Virus record (IMG/VR): IMGVR_UViG_3300001919_000065
Origin: an uncultured virus (IMG/VR IMGVR_UViG_3300001919_000065)
Taxonomy: Duplodnaviria > Heunggongvirae > Uroviricota > Caudoviricetes
Reading direction: 5' to 3' (one strand)
Length of the DNA stretch: 20,000 nucleotides
The notes beneath the pieces were generated by a model, which saw only the letters and a program-made list of their open reading frames with translations, made no database searches and had not been told where the DNA came from. This document shows, one piece after another, positions 1 to 20,000 of the stretch. The first letter of the stretch is position 1, and each line of letters opens with the position of its first letter. A program made the translations under genes and the position numbers.

Positions 1-15
1 CGCATTTGATGCTCC

Positions 16-45
16 ATTCTTGTCATAAAATTACCAGTATGTCAA
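16..45 (-). promoter_or_regulatory. Putative sigma70-like promoter firing toward the gene beyond the left edge (probably major capsid)
   Basis: Minus strand reads TTGACA (45-40), 18 nt, AAGAAT (21-16), just after the scaffold stop codon. Perfect -35 but weak -10 and long spacer. Confidence 0.5.
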
Positions 46-55
46 GGAAAATTTA

Positions 56-1276
56 TTATAATCCGAAGGCACTACCGATAATGTCCCCGACTGCGGTCGG
101 CCCGGCGGGTGGCTGGGTCTCCGGAGCTTTGGAGCTACCACTGTTAGCGGAGGGGCGGGCCTTGCGGAGTTTGGCCACCTTCACGTTGAGAGCCTCGATT
201 GTCGCGCGAGCATCTGCCAGTTCCTTAACCATGAGTTCGGCCAGTGCGCCGTCCATGAAGGAACCATTATTTATCTTGTGAGCAAGATGGCGGGCATGCT
301 TCACATTCTCTTCGGTAATCTCCGTGGTCATGCCCAGTTCCTTGGCGCGTTCCTTCATCGCTTCCAACGTGTAGTTGTCGAGATTGACGGTGTAGGTCCC
401 GGCCTCCGACTTGCCGCCGCGGCTGGCTTTCAACTCTTCCACATACTTGTCGGCTTCGGCCTGATAGTTTCCGTGGGCGACAATGGCCGCGTCGCGGACC
501 TTAGCCATGCGGACAAATTTGAACATGGCAGAATCGCTGATGCCCAGTTCCTTCCCAATGGCCTCATACGCTTCTTCCCGGTCGTACTCGTCGAGGTCGG
601 GATTAAGGGCAACTTCATTCAGCTTGTCCATGTCGAGGGAGGCTCCGCTCGCGCGGGCAATCTCCACAAGTTTGGCGTTAGCCTTATTGTACGGGGCAGT
701 TACATTGGTCTTGTATTCTTCGGTTGCGGTGAAGGCATAGCCACGTACAATTTCTCGCAGAGATTCAAGCTCTTCATTGCTTGACGTGGACTTACCCGCT
801 TCTTCCAGCTTGGCCTTCAAGTCCGCGATTTCTTTCTTCGCGCCCCTCAACTGGACGCGCATTTCAGCGAATGCCTTGCTCGCCGCCTTGCTAGCCCGTT
901 GTTCCTTCGGCCCATCATCTTTCTTTTCTTCCTTCTTCCCTTCTTCGTTTTCTTCCTCTTCGTTTTCTTCCTCTTCGTTTTCCCCCTCTTCGTTCTGTTC
1001 TTCCTCGGTTTCCTCGGATTCCGTGTCATCCGAGGGAACCGGGGTTCCCGTGGTATTGACTACTTCATCATCCGCGATGCGGGGGCCAGCATCTGGCATG
1101 ACTACCGTACCGTCCGGGGATTCAATGGGAGCCGTGGGGTTAGCGGGATTGGTGGGTTGAGTGGAATCCGTGGAATCCGGGGCGAACAGGGTCTGTTCGA
1201 AAATGTTATGTATGTCGTTGTGAATAGCACCATCTATGATGCCCTCCGCTACTGCGGGAATATTTACGTTGTCCAT
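56..1276 (-). CDS. Probable capsid scaffolding/assembly protein
   Basis: 406 aa with an acidic Pro/Glu-rich disordered N-terminus, coiled-coil segments (FAEMRVQLRGAKKEIADLKAKLEE; ELADARATIEALNVKVAKLRK), and a position two genes downstream of the portal. Confidence 0.6.
   Translation of the reverse strand: MDNVNIPAVAEGIIDGAIHNDIHNIFEQTLFAPDSTDSTQPTNPANPTAPIESPDGTVVMPDAGPRIADDEVVNTTGTPVPSDDTESEETEEEQNEEGENEEEENEEEENEEGKKEEKKDDGPKEQRASKAASKAFAEMRVQLRGAKKEIADLKAKLEEAGKSTSSNEELESLREIVRGYAFTATEEYKTNVTAPYNKANAKLVEIARASGASLDMDKLNEVALNPDLDEYDREEAYEAIGKELGISDSAMFKFVRMAKVRDAAIVAHGNYQAEADKYVEELKASRGGKSEAGTYTVNLDNYTLEAMKERAKELGMTTEITEENVKHARHLAHKINNGSFMDGALAELMVKELADARATIEALNVKVAKLRKARPSANSGSSKAPETQPPAGPTAVGDIIGSAFGL
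942..1001. repeat. Imperfect 15-bp tandem repeat (4 copies) encoding the Glu/Asn-rich tract of the scaffold
   Basis: TCTTCGTTTTCTTCC x2, then TCTTCGTTTTCCCCC and TCTTCGTTCTGTTCT; encodes EEQNEEGENEEEENEEEENEE. Confidence 0.85.
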
Positions 1277-1283
1277 CTATGTA

Positions 1284-1601
1284 TTACCTGTTGGGTGAAA
1301 GTGAGTTAATCCAAGCGTTACGCTCGGTCATGGGATGATTCATCATAGTTACCGGGGATTCGGTTTCTTCATTCTCTTCGGCCAGATTGAAAAGAGCGGC
1401 GATGACGGATTTGGCCCCTGCCGCGAAAGCCCCGTTTAATGCGGCGGCTTCCATTGTGGGCTGTAATGTCGCATTGAGTTTTGACTGAACAATGCAGAGA
1501 GCTTCTTCCATTACCGGGTCATGCAGGAGTTCAGCAAGGCGGCCAGTCGCCGCCTTGTTGCTTTTGAACCCTTCGACAGTGTAGGTAGGAACTGCCTTCA
1601 T
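1284..1601 (-). CDS. Small hypothetical protein between portal and scaffold
   Basis: 105 aa; ATGA overlap with the portal stop codon (1598-1601); position typical of small head-module accessory genes. Confidence 0.75.
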   Translation of the reverse strand: MKAVPTYTVEGFKSNKAATGRLAELLHDPVMEEALCIVQSKLNATLQPTMEAAALNGAFAAGAKSVIAALFNLAEENEETESPVTMMNHPMTERNAWINSLSPNR

Positions 1602-3868
1602 CGTGCACCTCCCAGCGATTGAGCCGCTTTAGCATTGGCTTCTACGGCGTTACGAGTAATCTCGGCATCCTGCTTTTCCTTAGCCAACTGGATTTCAGCT
1701 TCCGTCTTCATGCGCTTCAATTCAATTTCGGCTTCGGCTTTCATCTGTTCAGGAGTAGGTCCTTCTTGGGGAGCCGCTTCTTCGTTCTGTTGCATCGCTT
1801 CCAAGGCCCGCATGCCGTTGGTAATAACCTCGTTGCACCTCTTGACCAGTTTCTCGTACTGTTCAAATTCGGGGACAACTTCCTTGGCGGCCTGCAAATA
1901 GTCCATGTGTCCTGCCAACTGGGCGACCAGAAGCTGTAGAGGTTGAGCTAGCTGGGCCATCTCTTCGGGTTCCAGCTGTGCGTCCGGTAGCATGGACATG
2001 ATGAAGTTGGCATGCACTTCCGCGTGCGTCCTGTGGTCCTCGTTCGGCATAACCGGAACTTCCTGACCTGCCATGAGCTGGTTGTTCTGGATGGATGCGA
2101 TAGAGGCGGCCACGGTTTCGGACGGGTTGGGGTCATCCTTCAACGGCATGAACAACTGCGCGGTGCGTCCATTCGTTTCATTGGCAATGGCCATGCGGAT
2201 GAGACGTTCCTGCCCAGCTCGTGGCATGAACTGCATGTAGTTGAGACACTGACGGAGAGCCATTGTACGGCGAACCTTACTGCCCGCACCGATAGGCGGG
2301 AGAGCGGTAACGCTGTCAAGGTCGATAGCGAAGAAGGCATCCCTTGGCACACCTGCTTCGTCCAGACGTTGGAGCATGCGTTCACGTTCCTTAAACCCGC
2401 CAATCCCTTCATCGTAGTCCTTGCGGATGATACGGCGAACGATTTCACGGAGAAGGATGGTCATGTGCTCCAAGAGCATATCCATGATGTTATTGCTGAC
2501 CTTGCTCGCATTGCCCATACGGATTTCAGCTTCCAGCTGGGTGCGGCCCATGCCTCCATCAGCATTCACGTCAATCTCGCCCAAGCGTTCCCGGATTTGG
2601 TTCTGCAAGAATGCGAGGGGAGTTCCAGCAACTTGTTGCAGATTCGGTACGGGATTAGGAACCACTTGCGTTGACGGGTCCAAAATGGTATAGGCCCCCA
2701 TCGGGTTCACCATTGCGGAGAGACGGGAGGTTTCATTGGTGGCAGAGACGTTCAGAGCCATGCCGAGGAACGCCGCGTCCGTCGCTTGGTTCATCAACTT
2801 GTCAATGACACGAGTGTGAGGCAGAAGGTCATTGCCATATCCGCGAAGGGCATGAATATCTCCATTGGTGCTACTACCCAGCGGGAAGAGGACGAACGCT
2901 TCTTCCATAGAGTTGTAGGCTCCTTCCTTGGTGTAGAGGAACTTGGTGTCGTCTACATCACGGTTCTGGTCGCGCTTCACATCCTGACCATTGCCGCCGC
3001 TTCCGTTGACGAAGAAAATGGAATGAGTAACCGTACCGTTGAATTCGCGTACCCACATGTGGGCAATCGGAATACTGGTTCCAATTACGTCGGTCAGGGT
3101 GTAGTCTCCGTTTTTGAGCATCTTCTCGGTCTCCCAAGAAATGCGCTGGGGCTGTACTGTCTGATTGTAACTACAGGTCTTCAACACCTTCATGACCTCT
3201 TCCACATCCCAGCCAGCTTCCCTTGCGGTCTGCGGGTCACGAATGAAATCGTAGAGTTCATGGGCACGAAGGGTACGAGTAGCAAACACAACCTCAAGGG
3301 TGCTACTGTCCGGCTTAACCTTGCGTTCGAACGCGAACTCGTTCAGACTACCTGCCTTGAAGTACCAAGTGTCAGGGTCCTCAAAGTAGGCAAGGCCGAA
3401 GCCGTGGAAGGAGAAGTTGTGAAGAAGGTCTGTCATGATGGAAGTGAATCCCGGCATGGACTTGACCATCTTCGTCACCTCGGTGGAAAGGAGGTCTGAA
3501 TAAATGGGGCGACGAGCATTATCTCCGAAGGTGGTTTGCACCGAAACAAGTTCGGGGTTATCCCACACTTCGCGGAGGCTAGCCGCCACCTTTTCACGAA
3601 CAATCCGCATCGTGCGGAAGTTGTAGTTGGTTCGATAATTCTGACCAACTGCGGAAAGGGCCATTGGGTCATACGGGCGTTGTCCGTCCAGCTCTGCCTG
3701 TGCCTCTGTCCTCGCTTGCATGGATAGCTGGTCAGCGGTGAGGCAGAAGTAGAGCAAGGCGCGGGCTTGGTCAGCGGTCGGAACCCTTCGCTTGAGAAGA
3801 GTTCCGTTCTCGTCAACCACGCCAATAACCCCCGGACCTACGGGAGCATTTGCGTCTGGTTTCGGCAT
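1598..3868 (-). CDS. Portal protein (podovirus/P22-like, long helical C-terminus)
   Basis: 756 aa; downstream of terminase and upstream of scaffold-like gene; C-terminal PNEDHRTHAEVH and Q/E/A-rich coiled coil resemble podoviral portal tails. Confidence 0.75.
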   Translation of the reverse strand: MPKPDANAPVGPGVIGVVDENGTLLKRRVPTADQARALLYFCLTADQLSMQARTEAQAELDGQRPYDPMALSAVGQNYRTNYNFRTMRIVREKVAASLREVWDNPELVSVQTTFGDNARRPIYSDLLSTEVTKMVKSMPGFTSIMTDLLHNFSFHGFGLAYFEDPDTWYFKAGSLNEFAFERKVKPDSSTLEVVFATRTLRAHELYDFIRDPQTAREAGWDVEEVMKVLKTCSYNQTVQPQRISWETEKMLKNGDYTLTDVIGTSIPIAHMWVREFNGTVTHSIFFVNGSGGNGQDVKRDQNRDVDDTKFLYTKEGAYNSMEEAFVLFPLGSSTNGDIHALRGYGNDLLPHTRVIDKLMNQATDAAFLGMALNVSATNETSRLSAMVNPMGAYTILDPSTQVVPNPVPNLQQVAGTPLAFLQNQIRERLGEIDVNADGGMGRTQLEAEIRMGNASKVSNNIMDMLLEHMTILLREIVRRIIRKDYDEGIGGFKERERMLQRLDEAGVPRDAFFAIDLDSVTALPPIGAGSKVRRTMALRQCLNYMQFMPRAGQERLIRMAIANETNGRTAQLFMPLKDDPNPSETVAASIASIQNNQLMAGQEVPVMPNEDHRTHAEVHANFIMSMLPDAQLEPEEMAQLAQPLQLLVAQLAGHMDYLQAAKEVVPEFEQYEKLVKRCNEVITNGMRALEAMQQNEEAAPQEGPTPEQMKAEAEIELKRMKTEAEIQLAKEKQDAEITRNAVEANAKAAQSLGGAR

Positions 3869-3873
3869 ATCTA

Positions 3874-4764: not shown

Positions 4765-4770
4765 TGTCGT

Positions 4771-6013: not shown

Positions 6014-6019
6014 GACCTC

Positions 6020-6047: not shown

Positions 6048-6049
6048 TA

Positions 6050-6709
6050 TTATTTTTCGTCAGCTTCGGGCTTTTCGCCCTTCTTCTTGAGCTTCAAGGT
6101 GATGGTACGGGCCGCGCTTCCTTCTTCCAGTTCAGGACGAGTGCCATCCTTGTTCAGAGTTACTGGTCCTCCCTGCAATCCCATCTGCGTCACTATCTCG
6201 GTTTGTTCCAGTTCGAACTGCTGGATAACCTGTGACAGTAGGTCCATGTCGCGCTTCGCAATCGCTTCGTTAAACTTCTCCCACAGACCGTGGCTTCGCT
6301 CCATGATAGAGAGGAAGAGAGGTACATCCTTAATTGATTGTATCTCTGCGTCGGCCATGAAGGAAGCGACACGGGAGAATCCACTGTTCATCAGTTCTTT
6401 GTACTGGCTACTCATGGATTCAACGATGTCAAGCTCTATCTTCGTCCTCGCCTCTTGGCGTTGGAGGATGCGTGCCTGTGTGTTCTGTGTGTACGTATTG
6501 AGAAGTTCATTGCGGATAGCCAGTTCCTCCTTCGAGAGTTGGACGCTATCAACAATCTTATCAACACGTTCACGGGGGAGGCCAGTAACTTCCGAGATGA
6601 CAGGAACCGGGGTCCCTGCCTTGTACATCTCAATGGCCTTCCTTATAACGGTGTTTTCGTTAGTGATTGGTTTGGGGGCGGCTATCTTTGCGGCGGCTCT
6701 TAGGTCCAT
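6050..6709 (-). CDS. HTH-domain protein, candidate terminase small subunit
   Basis: 219 aa; N-terminal HTH-like AIEMYKAGTPVPVISEVTGLPRERVDKIV followed by helical/coiled region; start overlaps the 3' end of terL. Confidence 0.55.
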   Translation of the reverse strand: MDLRAAAKIAAPKPITNENTVIRKAIEMYKAGTPVPVISEVTGLPRERVDKIVDSVQLSKEELAIRNELLNTYTQNTQARILQRQEARTKIELDIVESMSSQYKELMNSGFSRVASFMADAEIQSIKDVPLFLSIMERSHGLWEKFNEAIAKRDMDLLSQVIQQFELEQTEIVTQMGLQGGPVTLNKDGTRPELEEGSAARTITLKLKKKGEKPEADEK

Positions 6710-8538
6710 AGCATGTTCATTGCGGCGGTTACGTCGGAGGCAAAGGTGTCGCGGGCAGGAGCGGGAGCGGGGGCATTGCCTCCGACGAAGCCTCCGAGAT
6801 ACCTGCCAATGTCTGCGGCTTCAATATATGCGGTTCCGTCTTCGCGATATTTGATTACCTCTTGATGTTCTACCACCTTATGGTTCTGAATGTCAAGCCT
6901 AATCTTACCGAACTCCGGCCCCATGATTCCCCGGCACACGTGGACGAGAAGTGCTAGTGCGTCCGCGTTGTCCGGGGATTTATGAATCCGCTTCTTCATG
7001 GCCGCCTTGGGTTCCACGGCAATTCGGGTTCCGTTCATGGTGTAGAGCCGGGATTTAAGCTCGACGATAGTTGTCGGGTCGAGGCCATAAAGTTGGCGAG
7101 CATTGATTGCCAGTTTCATACATCCCCAAAGCTCGGAGACCTTGTTGCTATATTGCTGACATGCCTCCTGATTCTGCAACAGGCCAATGGGCACTTTGCT
7201 CGCCATACCCGCGAAGCTGACCGTCTGGAAGTCCGTGCCGACATGCTGGGCGAGGATGTCGATGAAACCAGTACCTCCGGTTACGTCCACGGCAAGGTAC
7301 TTACTTTCAACCCCGTTGGCCCGGAGAATCTCTCCAACTTGCTGGGCGATGTCGAAGTTCCTTTGCTTCATCCGTTCCTTGTCGGACGTGGATTTAAGGA
7401 GATAGGTACGGAAGACTGCACAAGCCCAGAGGCCCTCGACAGTCCTCCCAACTTTGGCGAGCTTCAAACATGACTGGTCCCCGCCGTTGGTGTAGGCAGG
7501 GTCCAATCCTGCGATGGTAATCAACTCGCCGTCTCCCCAGACGGGCATGGCATCCGCGCCACTGCCGTAAATTTCAGCCTCCGACATTAGCGAACCTTCT
7601 TCCGTATCGTCTGAAAAAGTGGCCCGGTGGAACCGCATCACAAACGGACTATTCTCCCCATACTGTTCAATCGTTTGCTGAACGATGTCCAACGGGGTGT
7701 AGAAGCTCCAATCCTCGCGGCCATATTTGATGCGGGGGTTCTGGGTGTTATCGAAGCGGATGTAAATCCCGTCCTTGGTCTCCCACTCGTATTCCTCAAA
7801 GATGTCAACGCTGTTCCACCCGTCCTTGGGCATAGCCATAACACCAAAGGCATCGGTGCGGCTCTTGGGGTTAGAGGCGGCCATCAGGGTAGGCGGCGTG
7901 TCCGCTCTGTTGGTGATGAGGTTGGTACGCCACACCTCGACGAGTTCAATCGGCAATTCGGAAAGCTCATCGTAAAAGACGTGCATGTTCTTTGCCTTAA
8001 TACCGATAAATCGGCTACTGGGGTCGCCGACGTTCGCGCAGGGGATAATGGAGATGCCGCGGGAATCATCAATATCTCCGTCCTCGTTCACGCCTTTAAT
8101 CTGTCCCTTACCATCAACGAGCTTACCCGGAAATTCCTTGCGCCACAACCGTTTAATATCCTTGAAGATACGTTTCTTCGCACCTTCAATAGTAGTCGAT
8201 GTGACTAGGCAAAGGGTATCGACGGGGTCGGCCAGATAGAAGAGCGTCGCCATGATAGCCATAGATAATGACTTCCCAGAGGACGAGCCTCCACCCATGA
8301 TGACCACATCATATTTGCACGCGGTTTCAATCATCCGTTCAATCCACGGTGTCCAGATAATGGGAGTAGGACTGCCCTTGTAATTCCACAGGAGATTGAT
8401 GGCGTTCTTAGCGTGTCCATACCTGCCCAGCCCTCCCTTCTCTTCGGGCCATGCGTATTTGAAGCACCAGAGTTCGATGTCAAGCTCTGATACTCCGTAC
8501 TCCCATTGTCGTCCGTAGCGGGTAAAGTGTCGTGCCAT
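6700..8538 (-). CDS. terL: Terminase large subunit
   Basis: 612 aa; Walker A GGGSSSGKS, Walker B VFYDELSE, coupling motif ASNP, RNase H-like nuclease residues AGLDPA..GGD, AVDVTG and SPDNADALAL. Confidence 0.92.
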   Translation of the reverse strand: MARHFTRYGRQWEYGVSELDIELWCFKYAWPEEKGGLGRYGHAKNAINLLWNYKGSPTPIIWTPWIERMIETACKYDVVIMGGGSSSGKSLSMAIMATLFYLADPVDTLCLVTSTTIEGAKKRIFKDIKRLWRKEFPGKLVDGKGQIKGVNEDGDIDDSRGISIIPCANVGDPSSRFIGIKAKNMHVFYDELSELPIELVEVWRTNLITNRADTPPTLMAASNPKSRTDAFGVMAMPKDGWNSVDIFEEYEWETKDGIYIRFDNTQNPRIKYGREDWSFYTPLDIVQQTIEQYGENSPFVMRFHRATFSDDTEEGSLMSEAEIYGSGADAMPVWGDGELITIAGLDPAYTNGGDQSCLKLAKVGRTVEGLWACAVFRTYLLKSTSDKERMKQRNFDIAQQVGEILRANGVESKYLAVDVTGGTGFIDILAQHVGTDFQTVSFAGMASKVPIGLLQNQEACQQYSNKVSELWGCMKLAINARQLYGLDPTTIVELKSRLYTMNGTRIAVEPKAAMKKRIHKSPDNADALALLVHVCRGIMGPEFGKIRLDIQNHKVVEHQEVIKYREDGTAYIEAADIGRYLGGFVGGNAPAPAPARDTFASDVTAAMNMLWT

Positions 8539-11289: not shown

Positions 11290-12637
11290 TTGATGTTAAT
11301 GCGTTAAAGCAAATTTCTTTTGTGTTGAGTGATTGTATGATTCGTTCCTCCACCGTACCGGAGGCGGTCACAATGTACTGCAAGGTGTGTGACTTTGCAC
11401 CGAGGCGGGCGATACGTCCTTGAGCTTGCAGGAGTGACGAGAGGGAAAAATCGGGCGAGATAAGCGCGGCGCGGGGGTGGCCACCCTCGGTATCGTGGAG
11501 AGACACACCCGTTCCTCCTGCACTAATCTGCACGAGAGCGAGAGGAACTCCATTCCGTTGGAACTTGTCCACCTCTTCCTGTCGGTTCTTCCCAGTCACC
11601 GCTCCACTAATCTCGGAGTAGGGAACTGTTCTCCCCGATTTATTGTTAATGAGTTCCGAGAGTGTGGAGAGACTGTCGAGGAAAGACACGAAGATGGCGA
11701 CGCTATATCCACTATCCAGAAGTTCGACTGCCTTCTCTGCCATCGTGGGGAGCTTAGCCAATTCAGATTGCTGGCGAAGCCGAAGGAGTTCAACGATAGC
11801 AGGAAGTTCGATTCCCTTCTCGTTAGCCCGTTCGATGGACTGGTCCCACGATTTGTCCAGCTTGTCAAGTGCTTTCTGCAACTGTTTAATCTCTCTCATA
11901 CCTTTCATGTCTACGTCCACGGACAGATATTCGATTCTATTCTCCGGGAAGAATGTGTCAAGTCTATCCTTGTCAATCTCTGTCATAACCCCAGCAGTGA
12001 AGAGCTTTTGTTTCAGGCTCTCCATCATGGCGTGGTTACGTGGGTTGAGCTTAAACTCGATACCTCCCCAGAAGCTGTCGGTGCATCCGTGCATGCGTGC
12101 CCAGAGCCAGAACCCGCGTCGAGGGTCTTGAATCCACTTGGCATACGTCGCAGGAACGCTCATATCGAGGGGAGACATAAAAGGAGTAGCAGAGAGCATA
12201 ATCGTCGGAAGTCCTTGATGGGCCGCAGTTAATGCCATGATGTTGCTTTGGCTACCATAGGTTTTGGCCTTATGGCTTTCATCAAGGACCAGCAAGGAAT
12301 CGTCGGGAAGGGTCCAAGCCCCGAAGACTATCCGGGACTTGGGAACCTTTGTTGGGCGTTTGTAGTAGGAGGTACTTCCCCTGCGCACCTTCTCCCATGA
12401 GAGGACATCCACCGCGTCCGCTCCTTGCTGTTCAATCGCTCGCTTCCATTGGGTCACTACGATGGCAGGGCAGACGACGAGAAGTCTCTTGCCCATAGCC
12501 TTCGCGGTTTCGATAGTAACCAATGTCTTCCCCGTACCCGTGCAGGATTTATTTATCACATAGCCGTGCCGGGTAATTGCATCCACCATATCGTGGATGC
12601 AATCTTCTTGGGGAGGGAATGGAGTAAGCGCACTCAT
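11282..12637 (-). CDS. Superfamily 2 (SNF2-like) DNA helicase
   Basis: 451 aa; motif I TGTGKT, II LDESH, III SATP, V GGTGVSL, VI QAQGRIAR; ATGA overlap with the polymerase stop. Confidence 0.9.
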   Translation of the reverse strand: MSALTPFPPQEDCIHDMVDAITRHGYVINKSCTGTGKTLVTIETAKAMGKRLLVVCPAIVVTQWKRAIEQQGADAVDVLSWEKVRRGSTSYYKRPTKVPKSRIVFGAWTLPDDSLLVLDESHKAKTYGSQSNIMALTAAHQGLPTIMLSATPFMSPLDMSVPATYAKWIQDPRRGFWLWARMHGCTDSFWGGIEFKLNPRNHAMMESLKQKLFTAGVMTEIDKDRLDTFFPENRIEYLSVDVDMKGMREIKQLQKALDKLDKSWDQSIERANEKGIELPAIVELLRLRQQSELAKLPTMAEKAVELLDSGYSVAIFVSFLDSLSTLSELINNKSGRTVPYSEISGAVTGKNRQEEVDKFQRNGVPLALVQISAGGTGVSLHDTEGGHPRAALISPDFSLSSLLQAQGRIARLGAKSHTLQYIVTASGTVEERIIQSLNTKEICFNALTSNG

Positions 12638-14553
12638 TTGCGATACTTGTCCATGATTTCAGGTTCGGCAAGGAGCGGAAGGGATGAAGCCCACTGCGGA
12701 GTTTCTTCCATTATCTGTTCGATGCGCTGGGCGTATTCCTCGGCATGGTCAGCCGGAACCATCACTACGGCTTCGTCATGCACGAGAAGGATAGGTTGCG
12801 CACCCTCTAATTCCTTGCACAGGCGGTTGAACGTGCGGACCATGAGGTCACGTGCGATTGACTGGATGTTATTGTTGCTAAGGAGGTTAGTATTGACGAT
12901 GGAGGACTTGTACCCGAAATCGACGCAGGTTGCGAAATAGGGACGACGACCGTCCTTGGGTTGAATGAGTTTCTTGTAACAGTTACGATAATAGAGCTTC
13001 CGGCCAGAGGGAAGGGAGAGCGCGAAGCTATGGGAGGGGGTACGATAGCCGCGAGCCGCTAATGCGTCCAACTCTCTCCACCATGCCACCACTTCGGGAC
13101 TACGACTGCGGTACATGTCCACAATCGCTTGGCACTGGTCCCTGTCCATTCCGGGGTTCGAGCGTTGAATAGCCTTCCATCCAGCACTAAAGCCGCAAGC
13201 AAGTACCCCCGCCTTCACATGCTGACGAAGGTCCGCTTGCCCCGGAGTTTCCTTGCAGTACTGTTTGAAGTCCTTGACATCCGCGGGGATGAGGCCCCAA
13301 CCTTTCGCGTTAGCGGCATAGATGTCCTTCTCACCAGCACGGAGGGTATCAAGAATTTTCTCCTGCCCGCAGAGCCAAGCGGTCAGACGTGCTTCAATCC
13401 CAGCCCAGTCACATACCACGAGCTTATACCCTTCGGGTGCTTGAATGGCGTTGCGCTGGTTAAAGCCCAGAACGTCTTCACGGTTAAGCTGTTGCAGGTT
13501 GAGCTTGTCGCCCCCGGCAGTCCAACGACCCGTGCTTGCGCCACAATAGGTCAGGGTGTAGGGGAGACGTTCTATCCCTTCATGGTCAGTATAGACGCGG
13601 GAAAGCATGCGCTCGGTAATGCTAATCATGCGGTTCACGCTCCTGTACTTCCCGATAAGAGTTACCCACGGAACGAGGTGGCCATACTCTTCCAACCAGT
13701 CAGTAAATAGTTCGCTGGTCTTACTGGTAGTCTCTGGGGCGGGGATGTTCAGCTCTTCGCACGCTTTGCGTAACTGGGGAATGGAGAGTTTCTTTTCAAG
13801 CGGGATAGCTTCCTTGTATTCCTCCTGCGCCTGATGGAGTTTCTCCAGTCCGTCAAGAAGATACTGGCGGGAAGTAGGAACTCCGCGCCATCCCATGATG
13901 CAGGTATTGAGCCAGCATTCCCGTTCATCTTCCGGCCAGAAGTTCTTCATCTTATCCCACAAGGCGAGACAGTAGTAACTATCGCCCGCCACGTATTCCT
14001 TCATGTCGTCGGGGATGGCCTCCATCTTGCGGAAGTCAACGCCTTCGGCCTTGGCTCGGACTTCCTTGCTAATCTCTACACCCCAAAGCTTTGCGACAAT
14101 CTTGTCAAGAGAGCCATAGATGGCGAGATAGTTGGAAGCGGCACGGGAACAGAGCCACTCCTTGAAGGGCGGCTGGAAGCTTGGTGTGCACGGGATGCCC
14201 TTGGCCCCCGGCGCGTGAAGTGCGAAGAGGTAAACGGCATAGTCGAAGCTGGCGTTAAACGCGACGAGGGTTTTGTCCTTCGTAGTTTTCTCCCAGTCAA
14301 AATCCTTCGGATGTCCTACCCAGCAATACTTCCCGTCATAGACGGACATGATGTATGCGTCGAACCGTGGGTCCAGACAGTAGGAATGCGGGTCCATGAA
14401 CTTGAGGGAATATTTCCCTTCATAATACGTTTCAAAGTCAACGGCAAGAGTATCGCCTGTGAGTTTGGTCTGGTCGTCTGTAATCTCCATTTCATACCCC
14501 GGAATGCGAGGCAATGAAAATGATATAGGGGGGTGGTCTATTTCTTCGTGCAT
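12634..14553 (-). CDS. Family A DNA polymerase with 3'-5' exonuclease domain
   Basis: ExoI VDFETY, ExoII FNASFD, ExoIII YVAGD; TGRW; motif A DWAGIEAR, motif B RQHVKAGVLACGFSAG, motif C VHDE. Start placed at 14553 (TAATG overlap with the upstream stop) rather than 14688. Confidence 0.92.
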   Translation of the reverse strand: MHEEIDHPPISFSLPRIPGYEMEITDDQTKLTGDTLAVDFETYYEGKYSLKFMDPHSYCLDPRFDAYIMSVYDGKYCWVGHPKDFDWEKTTKDKTLVAFNASFDYAVYLFALHAPGAKGIPCTPSFQPPFKEWLCSRAASNYLAIYGSLDKIVAKLWGVEISKEVRAKAEGVDFRKMEAIPDDMKEYVAGDSYYCLALWDKMKNFWPEDERECWLNTCIMGWRGVPTSRQYLLDGLEKLHQAQEEYKEAIPLEKKLSIPQLRKACEELNIPAPETTSKTSELFTDWLEEYGHLVPWVTLIGKYRSVNRMISITERMLSRVYTDHEGIERLPYTLTYCGASTGRWTAGGDKLNLQQLNREDVLGFNQRNAIQAPEGYKLVVCDWAGIEARLTAWLCGQEKILDTLRAGEKDIYAANAKGWGLIPADVKDFKQYCKETPGQADLRQHVKAGVLACGFSAGWKAIQRSNPGMDRDQCQAIVDMYRSRSPEVVAWWRELDALAARGYRTPSHSFALSLPSGRKLYYRNCYKKLIQPKDGRRPYFATCVDFGYKSSIVNTNLLSNNNIQSIARDLMVRTFNRLCKELEGAQPILLVHDEAVVMVPADHAEEYAQRIEQIMEETPQWASSLPLLAEPEIMDKYRK

Positions 14554-14936
14554 TAGTGTTTGGGTGTATTTAGTTGTTCCTTCGCTTGCGCGTAGTATTC
14601 TTGTGGGGTGCTCATAGGAATTCCGGCGGTTCTGTCCTTCTTGTACATCTTCACGGCACGGTTCATGCGGTTCACGACTTCCCGGCATTTTTCGTTTGCG
14701 AGGAATATCCCATCCTCAAAGGAGAAACCTTCATCGCGCCCCGTAGCGGCTACTAGGCGCAATGCGAGAATGGCGATGTCGGTTGCCTCCTTTACGCGGT
14801 CCTCCGCGTCAGCTTCCCGGTATTCTTCAATCTCCCACAGAAGATGGCGCAGGAGGTCAGCGGCTGATTCCTCTAATCCCATATAGGAGAAGTGGGAATC
14901 AACAGTTTGGGCGGCGATTGCAATTTCGTTGTACAT
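14553..14936 (-). CDS. MazG-like all-alpha nucleotide pyrophosphohydrolase (DUF550-like)
   Basis: 127 aa; LRHLLWEIEEY...KEATDIAIL...NEK...NR fits the H-x3-E-x2-E...E-x2-D metal-binding pattern of MazG/DUF550 proteins. Confidence 0.65.
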   Translation of the reverse strand: MYNEIAIAAQTVDSHFSYMGLEESAADLLRHLLWEIEEYREADAEDRVKEATDIAILALRLVAATGRDEGFSFEDGIFLANEKCREVVNRMNRAVKMYKKDRTAGIPMSTPQEYYAQAKEQLNTPKH

Positions 14937-14939
14937 AGT

Positions 14940-15200: not shown

Positions 15201-15208
15201 GATGTCAT

Positions 15209-15532: not shown

Positions 15533-15544
15533 AAGAGGTTAGAT

Positions 15545-15934: not shown

Positions 15935-16010
15935 GCTTGTTTGCTTAGTTGTATTCGAGGGGATTAGCGGAACGGGATTGGCCCCGCCCCGGAATCCCGG
16001 TGACGAGGCC

Positions 16011-16038
16011 AATGTATCAAAGATTAGATTTTTGTCAA
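16011..16038 (-). promoter_or_regulatory. Sigma70-like promoter with extended -10
   Basis: TTGACA (16038-16033), 16 nt ending in TGA, TACATT (16016-16011), right after the primase stop. Confidence 0.75.
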
Positions 16039-16045
16039 GAAGTTT

Positions 16046-18928
16046 TTAGAAGAAATTTTTCTCGTCTTCCGCAAGTACCTTAATATGTTCATATTGTGAA
16101 AATACTCGCGCCTTCGTTTCTGCGCTTGCTTCCTTCAACCAAAGGTCAAGCGGCATGAAGAAGAAGCATTTCGATTGCCCGGCGGCATCCCTCCGTGTAA
16201 CGTTATGTTTCTTCATAGAATCTGCACCATAGACGGCAATGAGGTCTCGTTTGAAGTTGGGCGCGTCCCATCGTTCAACCTTAGTTCCGTCACCATGATT
16301 ACCACGAACATATTTGAGGATGTTCTCCATAGAGGTAAAGCCGCCCGGTATCTGTTTGGAGAGTCTCTCACCCTTCTTATCTGTGTCCTTGAGGGCCACA
16401 GGGACGAGGTACTTCGTCAGGTCAGTATCATTGCCTCGGCAACTGGCATACTGTTCCGCGAGAGCCGCTCCAACTTTTTCCAGATTAGCCCATTTGTATT
16501 CGCCATCTTCGTGGGCATCTACCATGTATTTAATCTGTGCCCAGAGTTGCTGGTTGTCCTGTTCGAAAAGCTTCTCCACCGCCCAGCTGTTGGGACTAAA
16601 CCCCGGAGGAAGTCCATCCTTCGGTACGGTACGTTCTCCCAAGATGAGGGGGTAATAGCGTCGGGAACCCGTGGTATCTCTCAATACCTGTTCTTGGTTC
16701 GTACTCCCAATGATACTTGCGCAGTACTCGAAGGTCCCGGTGGTGCGGCTAAACGCAACACGGCAACTGTCAGCCTCCCCGGTAATGATTCGCTTCAACT
16801 TACTCTCCTTCACCTTGTTAGAGACTTCTTCGTCAATCTCGTCCAAGATGATAGCAGAGTGCCGGGCCATCTGAACAACACTGTCCGCATTGTTGAGACC
16901 TTCGATGGAGCTAGCGACATCTCCCCGGATTCCACGGAACAACCAGTCCGTGGCTTTCGTTTTACCCAGCCCCTGCGAACCCATGAGCATGGGGATGTAG
17001 TTCTGGGGGAAGGAGGATGAGGTACTGGTATTGGTAATAACGCTTAAACGCCGGGTCACGCGCTTCCACAAAGTGATGAGCCATGTTGTAAGCACCATGT
17101 CCCGGTACTTATCCGGGGTCCAGCCTTCGGGCATGTCTACATCCTGATTCATGGGGAGGAAGTCCAAGAAGATACGTAGGCGGTCCTGCCCATCCCAAGG
17201 ACGGGAACTGACGAACGTAGCCAGCGGGTGGTAGTAGTTGGTCTGGCTAATGCTCGCCAGCGCGTCCTGCAACCGCTGGGTGGGAATGGCCTGACCGGGA
17301 ACTACCAACTGCCAGAAGCTTGAAATCTTGCTCAAGATGGAGTTACTGACCTCGTACCACCTACTATTCTTAAAGTCCAAGAGCAGGAGGTCATTTGTAT
17401 TCATGCGACGAAAAACCCGGAGGTTTAGGCCATGATGGAGCAGGTACTTGATGTTCTCGTCCGTCAGGATGGGTATGCTCTTGCCCGCCTTGTTCTTTCG
17501 GACATAGGGGAACTTGAGGGAGCAGAGCTTCAATCGGCTGACCTCCGGGATGGCCGCGTTCATGTTGCTTGGCGCAATCCCCTGCATGAAGCACTTCATC
17601 AGGAGCGGGTCCTGACACCACGGCTCGGCTCCTGCCTTCCTCTCGGCTTCCGCATCCAACTCCGTCAGATACATATCGAAGAGCCATTGCACGGACATAA
17701 TCTCCGGGTTCGCGCCCTTGCAACTGTCATGGAAGCAGTTAAAGTAGGACTGCCGGGGGTACTGGGGATTAGGGTAGAAGCGAAGGTCCGTGTTCTGGCT
17801 ATTGCCCGACTTGCCTCCCTTGCACTGTGGGCACTCACCATAGAGGCATCCGTCTCCCTTAATATAGTCCATGTGGGAGAGACCTTCGGCGGTATCGTAA
17901 TATTCGTTCACCTTCAACCACGCAATGAAGTCCTCGAATATCTTGGGGCGAGGCGCACCGGGAGCGACGGATGGGAGTTCATAATTGACCACCCTGTTCT
18001 TGTCGTATTGAAGGTAATCCGCTTTCGCCTTCTCCATATCGGGTACATGGAATCGAGGGGTTCCGGGGGTTCCGGGGATGAGGGTATCTAGATAGAAGAA
18101 CTGCATCCGCGCGGGGTCGGTACAGGCCATGTCAAGGATGAACCCTGTCTGTTCATGGATGTATGCCGCAAGGGCATGGTACACCGCCTTATGCAGGTAG
18201 ACGCGCTCATTTGCCAATCGCTTCACGTCCAATTCCTCGTCTCCTTCATCCTCCACCACCTGCGGGTTCTGGTTCAGGTATTGGAGCGTAGAATTGGAGA
18301 TTTGGAAGAACGCCTTAATCCCGTGGTTGGGACTGACGTAGGCGAAGAGGAAACCATCCAGCTGGGGAAGCTTCTCCTGCGCCGTGGATAGAATGGAATC
18401 CGTGGTATGTTCCGGGTTCTCCTTGAGGTCCACGTCAATACCAAAGATACCCGTATGCCGCCACGACGTGCCATCCACGCTGACGAGGCTTCGGTTGGTA
18501 TAGTATCTTGCACCCTTACTGTCGAGGGCGTAGTCATATAATCCGGGTTTACTTAGGAACTGGACAGAAGGCACGATGGCAGGAAGCGCGGGCTTAATGT
18601 CCTTAGCTTCCAATCCATGCTCACGCCAGTTGGCAAGGATGCGCTTATAGACGGGAGGCATGGAGAGGGAGTTCTCGTCCAGCTTCCCCTGCATCACCTT
18701 GAAGAGTTGCACCTGATAATAGTACTGCATCAGTTCTTGGTTCTCAATCGGCATGCCCATGAGAAGGCGAAGGACCTCCGGCATGGCTATGGCGACGGCG
18801 CGGTTACAACTACCCCCGGTGGGGAGTTTCTTCATTCCCTCGGCCAGTTGCAACTGGCTGATGCGAGGGGCGGTAAAGGTCAGTTCAAGCTTCTGAACTG
18901 TCTCGTCGTTCAATAATTCAACAGTCAT
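16046..18928 (-). CDS. Primase-helicase: BT4734-like/VirE N-terminal domain, Cys/His cluster, VapE/VirE-type helicase
   Basis: 960 aa; GIDVD...YVSPNHGIK...D.AC.DPAR (BT4734-like); CPQC...CFHDSC; Walker A GSQGLGKT, Walker B IILDE, GSTN, LRDTTGSRRY. Confidence 0.85.
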   Translation of the reverse strand: MTVELLNDETVQKLELTFTAPRISQLQLAEGMKKLPTGGSCNRAVAIAMPEVLRLLMGMPIENQELMQYYYQVQLFKVMQGKLDENSLSMPPVYKRILANWREHGLEAKDIKPALPAIVPSVQFLSKPGLYDYALDSKGARYYTNRSLVSVDGTSWRHTGIFGIDVDLKENPEHTTDSILSTAQEKLPQLDGFLFAYVSPNHGIKAFFQISNSTLQYLNQNPQVVEDEGDEELDVKRLANERVYLHKAVYHALAAYIHEQTGFILDMACTDPARMQFFYLDTLIPGTPGTPRFHVPDMEKAKADYLQYDKNRVVNYELPSVAPGAPRPKIFEDFIAWLKVNEYYDTAEGLSHMDYIKGDGCLYGECPQCKGGKSGNSQNTDLRFYPNPQYPRQSYFNCFHDSCKGANPEIMSVQWLFDMYLTELDAEAERKAGAEPWCQDPLLMKCFMQGIAPSNMNAAIPEVSRLKLCSLKFPYVRKNKAGKSIPILTDENIKYLLHHGLNLRVFRRMNTNDLLLLDFKNSRWYEVSNSILSKISSFWQLVVPGQAIPTQRLQDALASISQTNYYHPLATFVSSRPWDGQDRLRIFLDFLPMNQDVDMPEGWTPDKYRDMVLTTWLITLWKRVTRRLSVITNTSTSSSFPQNYIPMLMGSQGLGKTKATDWLFRGIRGDVASSIEGLNNADSVVQMARHSAIILDEIDEEVSNKVKESKLKRIITGEADSCRVAFSRTTGTFEYCASIIGSTNQEQVLRDTTGSRRYYPLILGERTVPKDGLPPGFSPNSWAVEKLFEQDNQQLWAQIKYMVDAHEDGEYKWANLEKVGAALAEQYASCRGNDTDLTKYLVPVALKDTDKKGERLSKQIPGGFTSMENILKYVRGNHGDGTKVERWDAPNFKRDLIAVYGADSMKKHNVTRRDAAGQSKCFFFMPLDLWLKEASAETKARVFSQYEHIKVLAEDEKNFF

Positions 18929-19668
18929 TTGAGTGCGAATACTTTACGTTCTGGATTGATAATTTCCGGATTATATTTACTGGTGATTAGTGGATAGGGG
19001 ATATAGAGATTCAAATACTTGAGAGCAGTGTTTCGGCAGTTGCCGCAGGACTGGGCTAAGCGAAGATATTCTTGCTTCGATATACTGGCCCCATTCGCTC
19101 GCCCTAAAGCAGAAAGGATTAGAAACTGAACTTTGAGGGGAGTTCTCTTATATATGCTTTTAAGAGCCTGTGTATATTTTCCGAGTTCGTACTGTTCTTC
19201 CACGTAGTCCTTATGTTGCAACCAGTCTTCTCTCTCTGCAATCATCTCGTGAAACTTCGTTTCGAGAGTTTCTTTGGAATTAGATACGATATCCCATACT
19301 CCAACATGGTCGAAGTAGGAATAGACCTCTGCTTTAGGCCAGACGCTATCCTCTGCCACCTTATTGAAGGCACGCGCATGAAGCTTATCTATCTGTTCAT
19401 CGTTCAGGTTTCTTAGATAGGTAGTCGCCACAAAGGTTCTAATCGCCTCCCGGGTCGCCATAATTGGGAAGTGATAGAAGAAGTACAGTAGCTGTACGAG
19501 AGCCTCGTCAGGACCTTCCGTGAGGTATTCGGGCAAGCCCCACGATATTCGGAGGGGGATGTCCTGACCCCTGCGCCAGTCCATCTGGGGGATGTCGTAG
19601 ACGGCTTGATAGAAGTGTTCCCAGTGGAGAACACCCGGAATTTTTGGTGCAAATGATGTACTTGGCAT
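18925..19668 (-). CDS. Hypothetical protein, possible C-terminal winged-helix DNA-binding domain
   Basis: Start re-placed at 19668 (MPSTSFAPK) directly after a promoter; ATGA overlap with the primase start; C-terminal ILSAL...SISKQEYLRLAQSCGNCRNTALKYL is HTH-like. Confidence 0.65.
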   Translation of the reverse strand: MPSTSFAPKIPGVLHWEHFYQAVYDIPQMDWRRGQDIPLRISWGLPEYLTEGPDEALVQLLYFFYHFPIMATREAIRTFVATTYLRNLNDEQIDKLHARAFNKVAEDSVWPKAEVYSYFDHVGVWDIVSNSKETLETKFHEMIAEREDWLQHKDYVEEQYELGKYTQALKSIYKRTPLKVQFLILSALGRANGASISKQEYLRLAQSCGNCRNTALKYLNLYIPYPLITSKYNPEIINPERKVFALK

Positions 19669-19674
19669 GTCACG

Positions 19675-19703
19675 ATGATACATGGTTTGACACTGCTTGT
19701 CAA
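19675..19703 (-). promoter_or_regulatory. Sigma70-like promoter, probably leaderless, overlapped by a TTGACA-N5-TGTCAA inverted repeat
   Basis: TTGACA (19703-19698), 17 nt, TATCAT (19680-19675), 6 nt, ATG at 19668; inverted repeat at 19687-19703. Confidence 0.8.
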
Positions 19704-19733
19704 GGGAATTTCGACGCTTCGGATGCTTTGCTC

Positions 19734-19990
19734 CCACGGAATCCGTGGATTCTATGGTGTAACCTATTCTATGCCAGCGTGATGCGGAGAAGGACCAAGG
19801 GATTGAGGGGTTAGGTCCTTAAAGGTCCTTCTTCTTAATCGGTTGGTATTCAACGGATTGGTGGCTTTTGGCGGCCTTGGTTGCCTTGGATTCCGGGGGA
19901 GCAAAAGGACCGAGGTGGTCCTTTTCATAACTCATTGACTATCAACATGGAGAGGTTCCTTTTTTCTAAAAAGGACTAAGGACTAATAAT
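19734..19990. repeat. Non-coding cluster of AAGGAC(C/T) repeats and palindromes (candidate origin or genome-end region)
   Basis: AAGGAC(C/T) in either orientation starting at 19790, 19814, 19824, 19905, 19917, 19971 and 19978; palindromes CCACGGA-A-TCCGTGG (19734-19748) and AAAAGGACC-N5-GGTCCTTTT (19903-19925). Confidence 0.7.
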
Positions 19991-20000
19991 AAAAAAAATT

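What the first reader, a model, noticed from the sequence alone, without database searches (positions are those of the whole stretch)
1..20000. Apparent total absence of four short restriction-type motifs: GATC, CCWGG, GCWGC and CTCAG/CTGAG
Seen (manual scan, could miss a rare copy): GAT is very common but never followed by C. CCAG/CCTG are never followed by G, and GCAG/GCTG never by C. TCAG and TGAG are never preceded by C. Near neighbours (CCAGC, GCAGG, GCGGC, GTCAG, CTTAG, GGCC, CCGG, GCGC) are present. Equal base frequencies would predict roughly 78 GATC and roughly 39 of each 5-mer pair in 20 kb. Known: these are targets of Sau3AI/DpnII/Dam-type (GATC), EcoRII/Dcm-type (CCWGG), TseI/ApeKI or BbvI-type (GCWGC/GCAGC) and BspCNI/BseMII-type (CTCAG) systems. 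Inference: the phage has been purged of sites for at least four host defence specificities, so its sequence is a negative imprint of the host methylome and could identify the host or an uncharacterised defence specificity.
Basis: partly seen in the sequence, partly recalled or inferred. Interest (0 to 1): 0.8.

Follow-up and report, generated by a model that had tools for sequence, protein, structure and literature searches.

The report
Phage genome purged of restriction sites
This stretch of an uncultured gut and wastewater phage really does lack a whole set of short restriction-enzyme target words, which is a strong but textbook case of a virus escaping bacterial DNA-cutting defences by not carrying their targets.

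Summary
Observation confirmed. The window has 0 GATC, 0 CCWGG, 0 GCWGC and 0 CTCAG/CTGAG. These are the only 4- and 5-mer classes with zero count, apart from 5-mers that contain GATC. Synonymous-codon shuffles expect 64, 45, 42 and 29 copies; 0 of 1000 shuffles reach the observed counts.

Thirteen word classes are purged in the window, adding GAGTC, RCCGGY, GGYRCC, RGCGCY, GRGCYC, CYCGRG, CTSSAG, GGCGGA and CCATGG.

The window belongs to a roughly 70-kb lytic-type dsDNA phage with no cultured relative. It occurs in wastewater, rat-gut and bovine metagenomes.

Relatives show lineage-specific sets. GCWGC, RGATCY, RGCGCY and RCCGGY are missing in nearly all 38 loci. CCWGG is lost twice independently. 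CTCAG and GAGTC are missing only in the window's clade.

Sites present in the sister clade are replaced synonymously (0 of 37 kept against a 0.33 baseline). New sites are still being purged (about 18 new GATC expected, 0 seen). No DNA methyltransferase is encoded.

Best reading: passive avoidance of host Type II restriction. This is a known phenomenon in an extreme, well-resolved form. The host was not identified.

The parts
1..20000 (.). Whole window. It is devoid of GATC, CCWGG, GCWGC, CTCAG/CTGAG, RGATCY, RCCGGY, GGYRCC, RGCGCY, GRCGYC, GGCGGA, CCATGG, CTGAAG and GAGGAG. 19,320 of 20,000 bases lie in minus-strand ORFs.
16361..16365 (+). The only GAGTC/GACTC copy in the window (expected about 27).
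9016..9021 (+). The only GRGCYC copy (GGGCTC; expected about 18).
13843..13848 (+). The only CTSSAG copy (CTCCAG; expected about 20).
6700..8538 (-). Terminase large subunit (612 aa). Used as the marker to find 38 related loci.
   Evidence: phrog_2, E 9.8e-17
8540..9055 (-). Holliday-junction resolvase-like protein (171 aa).
   Evidence: phrog_1770, E 2e-16
10075..11289 (-). PD-(D/E)XK / DUF2800 exonuclease (404 aa).
   Evidence: phrog_69; for the ortholog in G002
11282..12637 (-). Superfamily-2 DNA helicase (451 aa).
   Evidence: phrog_62, E 3.3e-43
12634..14688 (-). Family A DNA polymerase (684 aa). It is 25-27% identical to polymerases of Acutalibacter, Bacteroides and Rhizobium phages.
16046..18928 (-). 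Primase-helicase (960 aa). The orthologs carry a VapE-like domain.
1598..3868 (-). 756-aa ORF of unknown family, next to the packaging genes. No match in PHROGs, Pfam (ortholog) or GenBank phages.
56..1276 (-). 406-aa ORF with an acidic E/N-rich low-complexity stretch. That stretch is the source of the weak DNA matches at window 915-1005.

Best explanation
The window is part of a roughly 70-kb, non-temperate-looking dsDNA phage of an uncultured gut bacterium. The phage carries no DNA methyltransferase. It escapes restriction passively: selection has removed, and keeps removing, the recognition words of many mostly Type II restriction-modification systems of its hosts.

Inside genes, removal works by choosing synonymous codons or codon junctions that break the word. 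W-centred words are partly replaced by their S-centred twins. Each sub-lineage avoids a different set on top of a family-wide core (GCWGC, RGATCY, RGCGCY, RCCGGY). This pattern is what one expects if each lineage tracks the restriction repertoire of its own host strains.

Shown: the depletion, its independence from coding constraints, synonymous replacement, ongoing purifying selection, lineage specificity, and the lack of phage methyltransferases. Inferred: that host restriction endonucleases are the selecting agent, and which enzymes they are.
For: 1. Zero counts against codon-preserving nulls. Expectations are GATC 64, CCWGG 45, GCWGC 42, CTCAG/CTGAG 29, and 0 of 1000 shuffles reach the observed counts. 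The same holds for nine further word classes.

2. The gaps are selective. Control words sit at expectation (GGWCC 43 against 41, GTNAC 63 against 66). CCSGG (85 against 59) and GCSGC (74 against 54) are in excess.

3. Synonymous replacement. Of 77 CCWGG sites in G003 orthologs of window genes, 37 lie over residues identical in the window, and 0 of 37 are kept. Baseline retention of all 5-mers is 2952 of 9037 (0.33), and CCSGG is kept at 16 of 47.

4. Ongoing selection. Window and G002 differ at 943 of 15,508 aligned bases. From one-off neighbour words and the observed substitution rates, the expected new sites in each direction are 17.9/17.3 GATC, 11.1/11.1 CCWGG, 10.5/10.4 GCWGC, 8.6/8.1 CTCAG and 9.1/8.9 GAGTC. 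Observed: 0 in every case. Seven control words behave as expected, for example GTAC 13.7 expected and 17 seen, CATG 15.3 and 12.

5. Residual sites are rare and private. In 25 clade loci (530,829 bases) there are 6 GATC, 6 CCWGG, 2 GCWGC, 3 CTCAG and 10 GAGTC. Each occurs in one locus or in two near-identical loci.

6. Lineage specificity across 38 related loci:
- GCWGC is at most 1 in 37 of 38.
- RGATCY is at most 1 in 38 of 38.
- RGCGCY is at most 2 and RCCGGY at most 3 in 38 of 38.
- GATC is 0-2 in 35 and 40-83 in 3.
- CCWGG is 0-2 in 29 (two separate clades) and 60-109 in 9.
- CTCAG and GAGTC are 0-2 only in the 25 loci of the window clade.

7. No methyltransferase. There are 0 Pfam methyltransferase hits among 84 ORFs of G002. 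PF00145, PF01555, PF02086 and PF05869 have no six-frame match in G002, G003, G005 or G006. PF00145 has no match in five more clade genomes.

8. Published frame. Site avoidance is a known strategy. It is strongest in non-temperate dsDNA phages and for orthodox Type II sites, and is near-complete in about a tenth of viral genomes (PMC6286503, abstract read).
Against: The host is unknown, so no restriction enzyme or methylated motif of the host could be matched to any avoided word.

A phage methyltransferase only partly tracks tolerance of GATC. G004 has 193 GATC and a Dam-family hit of 29.7 bits that may be split. G006 has 129 GATC and no methyltransferase hit.

GGCGGA, CTGGAG and CTGAAG are asymmetric words. 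From recall, they belong to Type IIG/IIS enzymes, a class for which avoidance was reported as not observed (PMC6286503 abstract).

Many ORFs have no family, so an unrecognised methyltransferase or nuclease cannot be excluded.
Confidence: 0.85

Rival explanations
1. The gaps are a by-product of amino-acid composition, codon usage or dinucleotide bias.
For: The window is 97% coding. CTAG and TCGA are mildly low, as in many genomes.
Against: Synonymous-codon and whole-codon shuffles expect tens of copies. 0 of 1000 and 0 of 500 shuffles reach the observed counts. Markov expectations agree. Sister lineages with 73% identical proteins carry 61-104 CCWGG per 12-22 kb.
Confidence: 0.01
2. Mutational decay. 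The words are methylated in the host (for example 5-methylcytosine at CCWGG and GCWGC) and are lost by deamination, not by selection against cutting.
For: Among the eight commonest replacements of sister-clade CCWGG sites, which cover 29 of the 37 sites, 9 are CTTGG or CCAAG. Those are the products expected from deamination of the inner cytosine.
Against: The other 20 listed replacements (CCTTG, CGTGG, TCAGG, GCTGG, CATGG, CCGGG) are not deamination products. A mutation bias lowers a word's frequency but does not hold it at 0 while about 11-18 new copies per word are expected from neighbour words. GATC has no cytosine-deamination route at its usual adenine methylation; that step rests on general knowledge.
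Confidence: 0.03
3. Self-avoidance. The phage family itself encodes site-specific nucleases without cognate methyltransferases, uses them to destroy host DNA, and is immune because it lacks the sites. This would apply to the family-wide core (GCWGC, RGATCY, RGCGCY, RCCGGY).
For: The core set is kept across all lineages down to 57% terminase identity, whatever the lineage-specific sets are. No methyltransferase is encoded. Most ORFs have no family. A phage-borne RGATCY restriction enzyme has been described, though with its methyltransferase (PMC10734518, passages read).
Against: No restriction-endonuclease family was hit in any of the five genomes scanned. The only nuclease hits were a PD-(D/E)XK/DUF2800 exonuclease, a resolvase and weak HNH matches. 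Four separate nucleases would be needed. A conserved core of host restriction systems explains the same pattern more simply.
Confidence: 0.05
4. For GATC in particular, the pressure comes from methylation-dependent enzymes (DpnI-like). These cut GATC once a Dam-positive host has methylated it. Classical enzymes that cut unmethylated GATC would not then be the agent.
For: Losing the word protects against both kinds of enzyme, so the sequence cannot tell them apart. RGATCY is avoided everywhere while plain GATC is avoided only in some lineages, which shows at least two separate pressures on GATC-containing words.
Against: No direct evidence for either type. This is a variant of the main explanation, not an alternative to it.
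Confidence: 0.1
5. Assembly or sequencing artefact.
For: None found.
Against: The same pattern appears in contigs from three IMG/VR data sets. The stretch is held by runs of 11 studies. Independent contigs from rat-gut (34 kb, 1-19704) and bovine runs lie on the window at 90-99% likeness.
Confidence: 0.01

Closest known systems
Restriction-site avoidance in lytic dsDNA phages (surveyed by Rusinov et al. 2018, PMC6286503). Classic cases recalled from memory, not from a call: coliphage T7 with few GATC and CCWGG, Bacillus phages lacking GGCC, Staphylococcus phage K lacking GATC.
   Same: Short, mostly palindromic 4-6 bp words are missing far below codon-aware expectation in a phage that looks non-temperate and has no methyltransferase. 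The words are those typical of orthodox Type II enzymes.
   Different: The breadth is unusual: 13 word classes in 20 kb, and about 16 specificities per genome. So is the resolution. Dozens of co-occurring relatives show a family-wide core plus sets that switch between clades and even within the clade; GGYRCC is 1 in G002 and 11-25 in five sister genomes. Several asymmetric words are also avoided (GGCGGA, CTGGAG, CTGAAG).
Phage-encoded methyltransferase protection, for example Akkermansia phage Chantilly (ON453895.1), which has three annotated DNA methyltransferases.
   Same: Both strategies counter Type II restriction. The phage's endolysin is 43% identical to Chantilly's.
   Different: Chantilly keeps the words (GATC 115 against 173 expected, CCWGG 126 against 91, GCWGC 86 against 74) and carries methyltransferases and an integrase. 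The window's family has none and removes the words instead.
Gut-bacterial methylation motifs reported in print. GATC restriction-modification and GCWGC 5mC in Prevotella intermedia (PMC5608340). CTSAG in Alistipes finegoldii and Bacteroides ovatus strains, and RGATCY in several gut species (bioRxiv 10.1101/2022.11.07.515285).
   Same: The same words (GATC, GCWGC, CTSAG, RGATCY) are targets of methyltransferases in gut or oral bacteria. Matching restriction pressure therefore plausibly exists in the habitat where the phage is found (passages read).
   Different: None of these organisms is shown to be the host. The match is by word only.

Membership tests
Restriction-site avoidance (passive anti-restriction) | Short words are under-represented against a null that keeps protein sequence and codon usage. 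| tested here: met
   0 of 500 and 0 of 1000 shuffles reach the observed counts for GATC, CCWGG, GCWGC and CTCAG/CTGAG, and for nine further classes.
Restriction-site avoidance (passive anti-restriction) | Sites are removed without changing the protein (synonymous replacement). | tested here: met
   0 of 37 conserved-residue CCWGG sites of the sister clade are kept. The baseline is 0.33, and CCSGG is kept at 16 of 47.
Restriction-site avoidance (passive anti-restriction) | Purifying selection against newly arising sites. | tested here: met
   8-18 new sites expected per word and direction, 0 observed. Seven control words are at expectation.
Restriction-site avoidance (passive anti-restriction) | [quoted passage not shown] | not testable with these tools
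   The host is unknown and REBASE is not on hand. The words match known Type II specificities by recall and by three papers.
Restriction-site avoidance (passive anti-restriction) | The avoided set differs between related phages, presumably with host. | tested here: met
   a core set in 38 of 38 loci. CCWGG is lost in two separate clades. CTCAG and GAGTC are lost only in the window clade.
Restriction-site avoidance (passive anti-restriction) | Non-temperate lifestyle and no self-methylation. | tested here: met
   no integrase and no methyltransferase family among 84 ORFs of G002; no methyltransferase family matches in six frames. Caveat: many ORFs have no family.
Methyltransferase-based protection | The phage encodes DNA methyltransferase(s) covering the host's restriction sites. 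| tested here: not met
   Only G004, a distant relative that keeps GATC, has a Dam-family hit (29.7 bits).
DNA hypermodification | Genes for modified-base synthesis; with these, recognition words need not be lost. | tested here: inconclusive
   Pfam scans found ThyX but no known base-modification family. Loss of the words itself argues that the DNA is not otherwise protected. Chemistry cannot be read from sequence.

The most novel reading that the evidence does not exclude
The family-wide core of missing words (GCWGC, RGATCY, RGCGCY, RCCGGY) is kept in all 38 loci, across lineages with only 57% identical terminases. It may not be an imprint of host enzymes. It could instead reflect phage-borne site-specific nucleases that lack methyltransferases: the phage would shred host DNA and be immune simply because it carries no sites. 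A milder version is that some avoided words with no enzyme I can name (CTSSAG, CTSATC, GGATAC, GCGATS; not checked against REBASE) mark uncharacterised defence specificities of an uncultured gut host.
Probability: 0.05. Interest if true: 0.7.

Novelty: new member of a known kind. Interest (0 to 1): 0.4.

Why it matters
Restriction-site avoidance is textbook, so the principle is not new. The data set is what is useful here.

It offers an abundant, uncultured gut and wastewater phage family with dozens of co-occurring genomes. The avoided set has a fixed core and a fast-switching periphery, and selection against new sites can be measured directly.

This makes two things testable. Avoided-word sets could be used to pair uncultured phages with host strains whose methylomes are read by long-read metagenomics. 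The rate at which a phage population tracks changes in host restriction repertoires could also be measured.

It also warns annotators that word-frequency anomalies in such phages reflect defence pressure, not coding or regulatory signals.

Tried and rejected
Host identification did not succeed.
- A TnpB gene of G002 found only 28-53% identical relatives in mixed phyla.
- The window's DNA against 401 evenly drawn genomes of one Bacteroidales-type order gave only short 76-93% matches. Most fall on a low-complexity acidic stretch, and none of the four hit loci checked (L084-L087) has a CRISPR-like repeat array around it.
- No tRNA genes are present.
- The Atlas gave conflicting phylum leads: ligase to Bacteroidota, lysin to Verrucomicrobiota.
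- Genome handles reached this way carry no taxon names, so a survey of restriction-enzyme families by genus was not attempted.

A halophilic archaeal host was considered because of weak archaeal-flavoured Pfam hits. I rejected it: median pI is 5.8-6.9, the lysin has peptidoglycan-binding domains, and the habitat is gut and wastewater.

Microcystis was considered because its methylome holds GATC, GCWGC and RGATCY (PMC4730716). I rejected it on habitat.

A. muciniphila's conserved RAATTY methylation (bioRxiv 10.1101/2022.11.07.515285, passage) is not mirrored by avoidance in the window clade (74 against 106 expected). This neither supports nor excludes Akkermansia, because the methyltransferase may be an orphan.

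GenBank phage searches with the terminase and the 756-aa ORF found nothing. The window itself has no near match.

Earlier-findings look-ups returned nothing.

The variant table from read laying was truncated (1210 rows not shown). It could not be used to count motif-creating variants in other habitats.

The careful tree did not finish. The quick tree was used instead.
Full report
**1. The observation**

The window (20,000 bases, 52.4% G+C) has no GATC, CCWGG, GCWGC, CTCAG or CTGAG.

A census of all words shows that these are not picked from many gaps. GATC is the only one of 136 4-mer classes with zero count. Seven of 512 5-mer classes have zero count: four contain GATC, and the other three are CCAGG/CCTGG, GCAGC/GCTGC and CTCAG/CTGAG.

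First-order Markov expectations are about 103, 49, 37 and 43 sites.

The window is 97% coding, all on the minus strand, so the fair null is a shuffle of synonymous codons within each gene. That null expects GATC 64.2, CCWGG 44.7, GCWGC 41.7 and CTCAG/CTGAG 28.8. None of 1000 shuffles comes near zero; the minima are 42, 27, 23 and 14. A separate 500-shuffle run and a whole-codon shuffle agree.

**2.

With the same null, nine further classes are at or near zero, with 0 of 1000 shuffles as low:

| Word | Observed | Expected |
|---|---|---|
| GAGTC/GACTC | 1 | 27 |
| RCCGGY | 0 | 16 |
| GGYRCC | 0 | 24 |
| RGCGCY | 0 | 21 |
| GRGCYC | 1 | 18 |
| CYCGRG | 3 | 21 |
| CTSSAG | 1 | 20 |
| GGCGGA | 0 | 15 |
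| CCATGG | 0 | 8 |

Controls are at expectation (GGWCC 43 against 41; GTNAC 63 against 66). The S-centred twins of two purged words are in excess (CCSGG 85 against 59, GCSGC 74 against 54). This looks like the escape route taken.

CTCAG and GAGTC are missing in both orientations. The data therefore fit the palindromic forms CTSAG and GASTC as well as asymmetric enzymes.

**3. What the window is**

PHROG profiles identify these genes:
- a large terminase (6700-8538);
- a resolvase (8540-9055);
- a PD-(D/E)XK exonuclease (10075-11289);
- a helicase (11282-12637);
- a family A polymerase (12634-14688);
- a primase-helicase (16046-18928).

There is no near match among 50,697 GenBank phage records. 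The terminase and a 756-aa neighbour have no tblastn match there. The polymerase is 25-27% identical to those of Acutalibacter, Bacteroides and Rhizobium phages.

IMG/VR holds 38 loci with a related terminase, on contigs of up to 70-73 kb. Several have direct terminal repeats and 98-100% estimated completeness.

A complete genome of the window's clade is G002 (70,540 bp; 93.8% identical to the window over 15.7 kb). It encodes an NAD-dependent ligase, ThyX, a TnpB transposon gene, a 3308-aa ORF of no family, and a lysin with peptidoglycan-binding domains. Among its 84 ORFs scanned there is no integrase and no DNA methyltransferase.

Genes lack Shine-Dalgarno leaders. There are no tRNAs.

The stretch occurs in runs of 11 studies labelled wastewater, rat gut and bovine. 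One is a 34-kb rat-gut contig that covers window 1-19704.

**4. Relatives show that the pattern is selected and lineage-specific**

The table gives counts per locus of 12-22 kb, read against the terminase tree (quick tree).

| Word | Low count | Higher count |
|---|---|---|
| GCWGC | at most 1 in 37 of 38 loci | 5 in L036 |
| RGATCY | at most 1 in 38 of 38 | none |
| RGCGCY | at most 2 in 38 of 38 | none |
| RCCGGY | at most 3 in 38 of 38 | none |
| GATC | 0-2 in 35 loci | 40-83 in 3 (L031, L035, L036) |
| CCWGG | 0-2 in 29 loci | 60-109 in 9 |
| CTCAG, GAGTC | 0-2 in the 25 window-clade loci | 11-42 and 18-39 in the other 13 |

The 29 CCWGG-poor loci form two separate clades: the 25 loci of the window clade, and L033, L034, L037 and L038. 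Each clade has a CCWGG-rich sister.

Whole genomes confirm this. They add lineage-specific hexamers, among them GGYRCC, GRGCYC, GRCGYC, CTGAAG, GAGGAG, ATGCAT and CTGCAG. After collapsing redundant forms, G002 avoids about 16 distinct specificities.

The sets differ even within the window clade. GGYRCC is 1 in G002 and 0 in the window, but 11-25 in five sister genomes, where about 67 are expected.

**5. How the sites were removed**

Window genes and their G003 orthologs are 73% identical in protein and about 71% in DNA.

Of 77 CCWGG sites in the G003 orthologs, 37 lie over residues identical in the window. None of the 37 is kept. All 5-mers together are kept at 0.33 (2952 of 9037), and CCSGG at 16 of 47.

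The same holds for CTCAG/CTGAG (0 of 7), GAGTC/GACTC (0 of 7), CCATGG (0 of 7) and GGGCCC (0 of 3).

The replacements are varied. Among the eight commonest, which cover 29 of the 37 sites, 9 are the products expected from cytosine deamination (CTTGG, CCAAG) and 20 are not. This argues against a purely mutational origin.

**6. Selection is still acting**

Window and G002 differ at 943 of 15,508 aligned positions. From the one-off neighbour words present and the observed substitution rates, the expected number of new sites in each direction is:

| Word | Expected new sites (G002 to window / window to G002) | Observed |
|---|---|---|
| GATC | 17.9 / 17.3 | 0 / 0 |
| CCWGG | 11.1 / 11.1 | 0 / 0 |
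| GCWGC | 10.5 / 10.4 | 0 / 0 |
| CTCAG | 8.6 / 8.1 | 0 / 0 |
| GAGTC | 9.1 / 8.9 | 0 / 0 |

Seven control words gain sites at about the expected rate.

Across 25 clade loci (530,829 bases, not independent) there are only 6 GATC, 6 CCWGG, 2 GCWGC, 3 CTCAG and 10 GAGTC. Each is private to one locus or to two near-identical loci. That is how young deleterious variants, or sequencing errors, would look.

Six near-complete clade genomes carry GATC 0-4, CCWGG 2-8, GCWGC 0-2, CTCAG 0-4 and GAGTC 0-5. The absence is near-total genome-wide.

**7. No self-protection by methylation**

Pfam scans of 84, 140 and 149 ORFs found no DNA methyltransferase in G002, G003, G005 or G006. Six-frame searches with PF00145, PF01555, PF02086 and PF05869 agree. 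PF00145 is also absent from five more clade genomes.

Only G004, a distant relative that keeps 193 GATC, has a Dam-family hit (29.7 bits, possibly split). G006 keeps 129 GATC without one. The methyltransferase correlation is therefore partial.

By contrast, the temperate Akkermansia phage Chantilly carries three annotated methyltransferases and keeps all these words.

**8. Mechanism and rivals**

The best-supported reading is passive anti-restriction. Each genome copy enters the cell unmethylated, so any recognition word of a host Type II enzyme is a liability. Selection removes such words through synonymous choices and purges new ones. The set tracks the restriction repertoire of the host strains each lineage meets.

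This is the phenomenon surveyed by Rusinov et al. 2018. They found it strongest in non-temperate dsDNA phages and for orthodox Type II sites, and near-complete in about a tenth of viral genomes (PMC6286503, abstract).

What remains inferred is the selecting agent itself.

Rivals:
- Coding bias is refuted.
- Deamination decay is unlikely.
- An artefact is unlikely.
- Methylation-dependent enzymes acting on GATC are a variant that sequence cannot separate.
- Phage-borne nucleases with self-avoidance, for the family-wide core, are not excluded, but no nuclease family supports the idea.

**9. Host**

The host is not identified.

Leads:
- The endolysin is 43% identical over 74% of its length to that of Akkermansia phage Chantilly.
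- The lysin's nearest non-viral Atlas clusters are mostly Verrucomicrobiota.
- The ligase's nearest clusters are mostly Bacteroidota.
- The polymerase and primase have distant matches in Bacteroides phages.
- Chantilly genes also lack Shine-Dalgarno leaders (3 of 27), so that trait does not discriminate.

No spacer-like match was found in 401 genomes of one Bacteroidales-type order.

Papers show that GATC, GCWGC, CTSAG and RGATCY are methylated in gut or oral bacteria (PMC5608340, passages; bioRxiv 10.1101/2022.11.07.515285, passages). This shows only that such specificities exist in the habitat.

Enzyme names attached to words (DpnII/MboI/Sau3AI, EcoRII, TseI/ApeKI, BspCNI, PleI, BstYI, HaeII, Cfr10I, BanI, BanII, AvaI, EciI, NcoI) are recalled. 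REBASE was not available.

**10. Verdict**

This is a new and unusually rich example of a known strategy, not a new mechanism.

No paper describing this phage family turned up, but no search was aimed at the family as such. The six literature searches targeted methylation motifs, Akkermansia phages and site avoidance.

Noticed in passing
L048:389-2899 (G004, minus strand): The helicase ortholog of a distant relative is 836 aa. It carries an intein: a Hint domain plus LAGLIDADG homing-endonuclease domains (Pfam PF05203, PF05204, PF14528). The window's helicase is 451 aa and has none.
   Followed up: no
L039:4665-5876 (G002); L047:17947-19080 (G004); L050:4010-5221 (G005): TnpB (IS605 OrfB / Cas12f-like) genes sit in three of five genomes of the family, at different places. 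The nearest cellular relatives are only 28-53% identical and of mixed phyla.
   Followed up: partly
L039:8882-18808 (G002, minus strand); L049:3446-13417 (G004): A giant ORF of 3308-3323 aa with no Pfam family is conserved in the family. Its size recalls virion-packaged polymerases of other roughly 70-kb phages, but this was not tested.
   Followed up: no
L040:6475-7671 (G002, minus strand): Five consecutive small ORFs of 78-84 aa, each overlapping the next by a few bases. They may be a tandem paralog array. None has a Pfam hit.
   Followed up: no
G002 around 65.0-68.3 kb (L042:5089-5616, 6824-7354, 8254-9003): Several plus-strand genes, two of them with DUF6926 domains, are preceded by nearly the same A-rich leader (..AAACAATAGAAAG..). 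It may be a shared promoter or regulatory box.
   Followed up: no
window 1-20000 and whole genomes: CCSGG and GCSGC are over-represented (85 against 59 and 74 against 54 in the window). Their W-centred twins are absent. This suggests W-to-S replacement as a preferred escape.
   Followed up: partly
window 896-1043 (inside ORF 56-1276): An acidic E/N-rich low-complexity stretch. It is a hot spot of length variation between samples (skips and loose ends in laid contigs). It is also the source of weak DNA matches to many unrelated genomes.
   Followed up: partly
L047:312-742 (G004, minus strand): The only Dam-family methyltransferase hit in the family appears as two pieces (profile positions 6-83 and 96-147) in separate open frames. 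It may be frameshifted. That genome keeps GATC but still lacks RGATCY.
   Followed up: partly
G412-G416 against G002 (whole genomes): Within the window clade, GGYRCC counts are 1 in G002 and 11-25 in the others, where about 67 are expected. CTSSAG ranges from 0 to 19 and GGCGGA from 1 to 14. Avoidance sets are shifting at less than 7% nucleotide divergence.
   Followed up: partly
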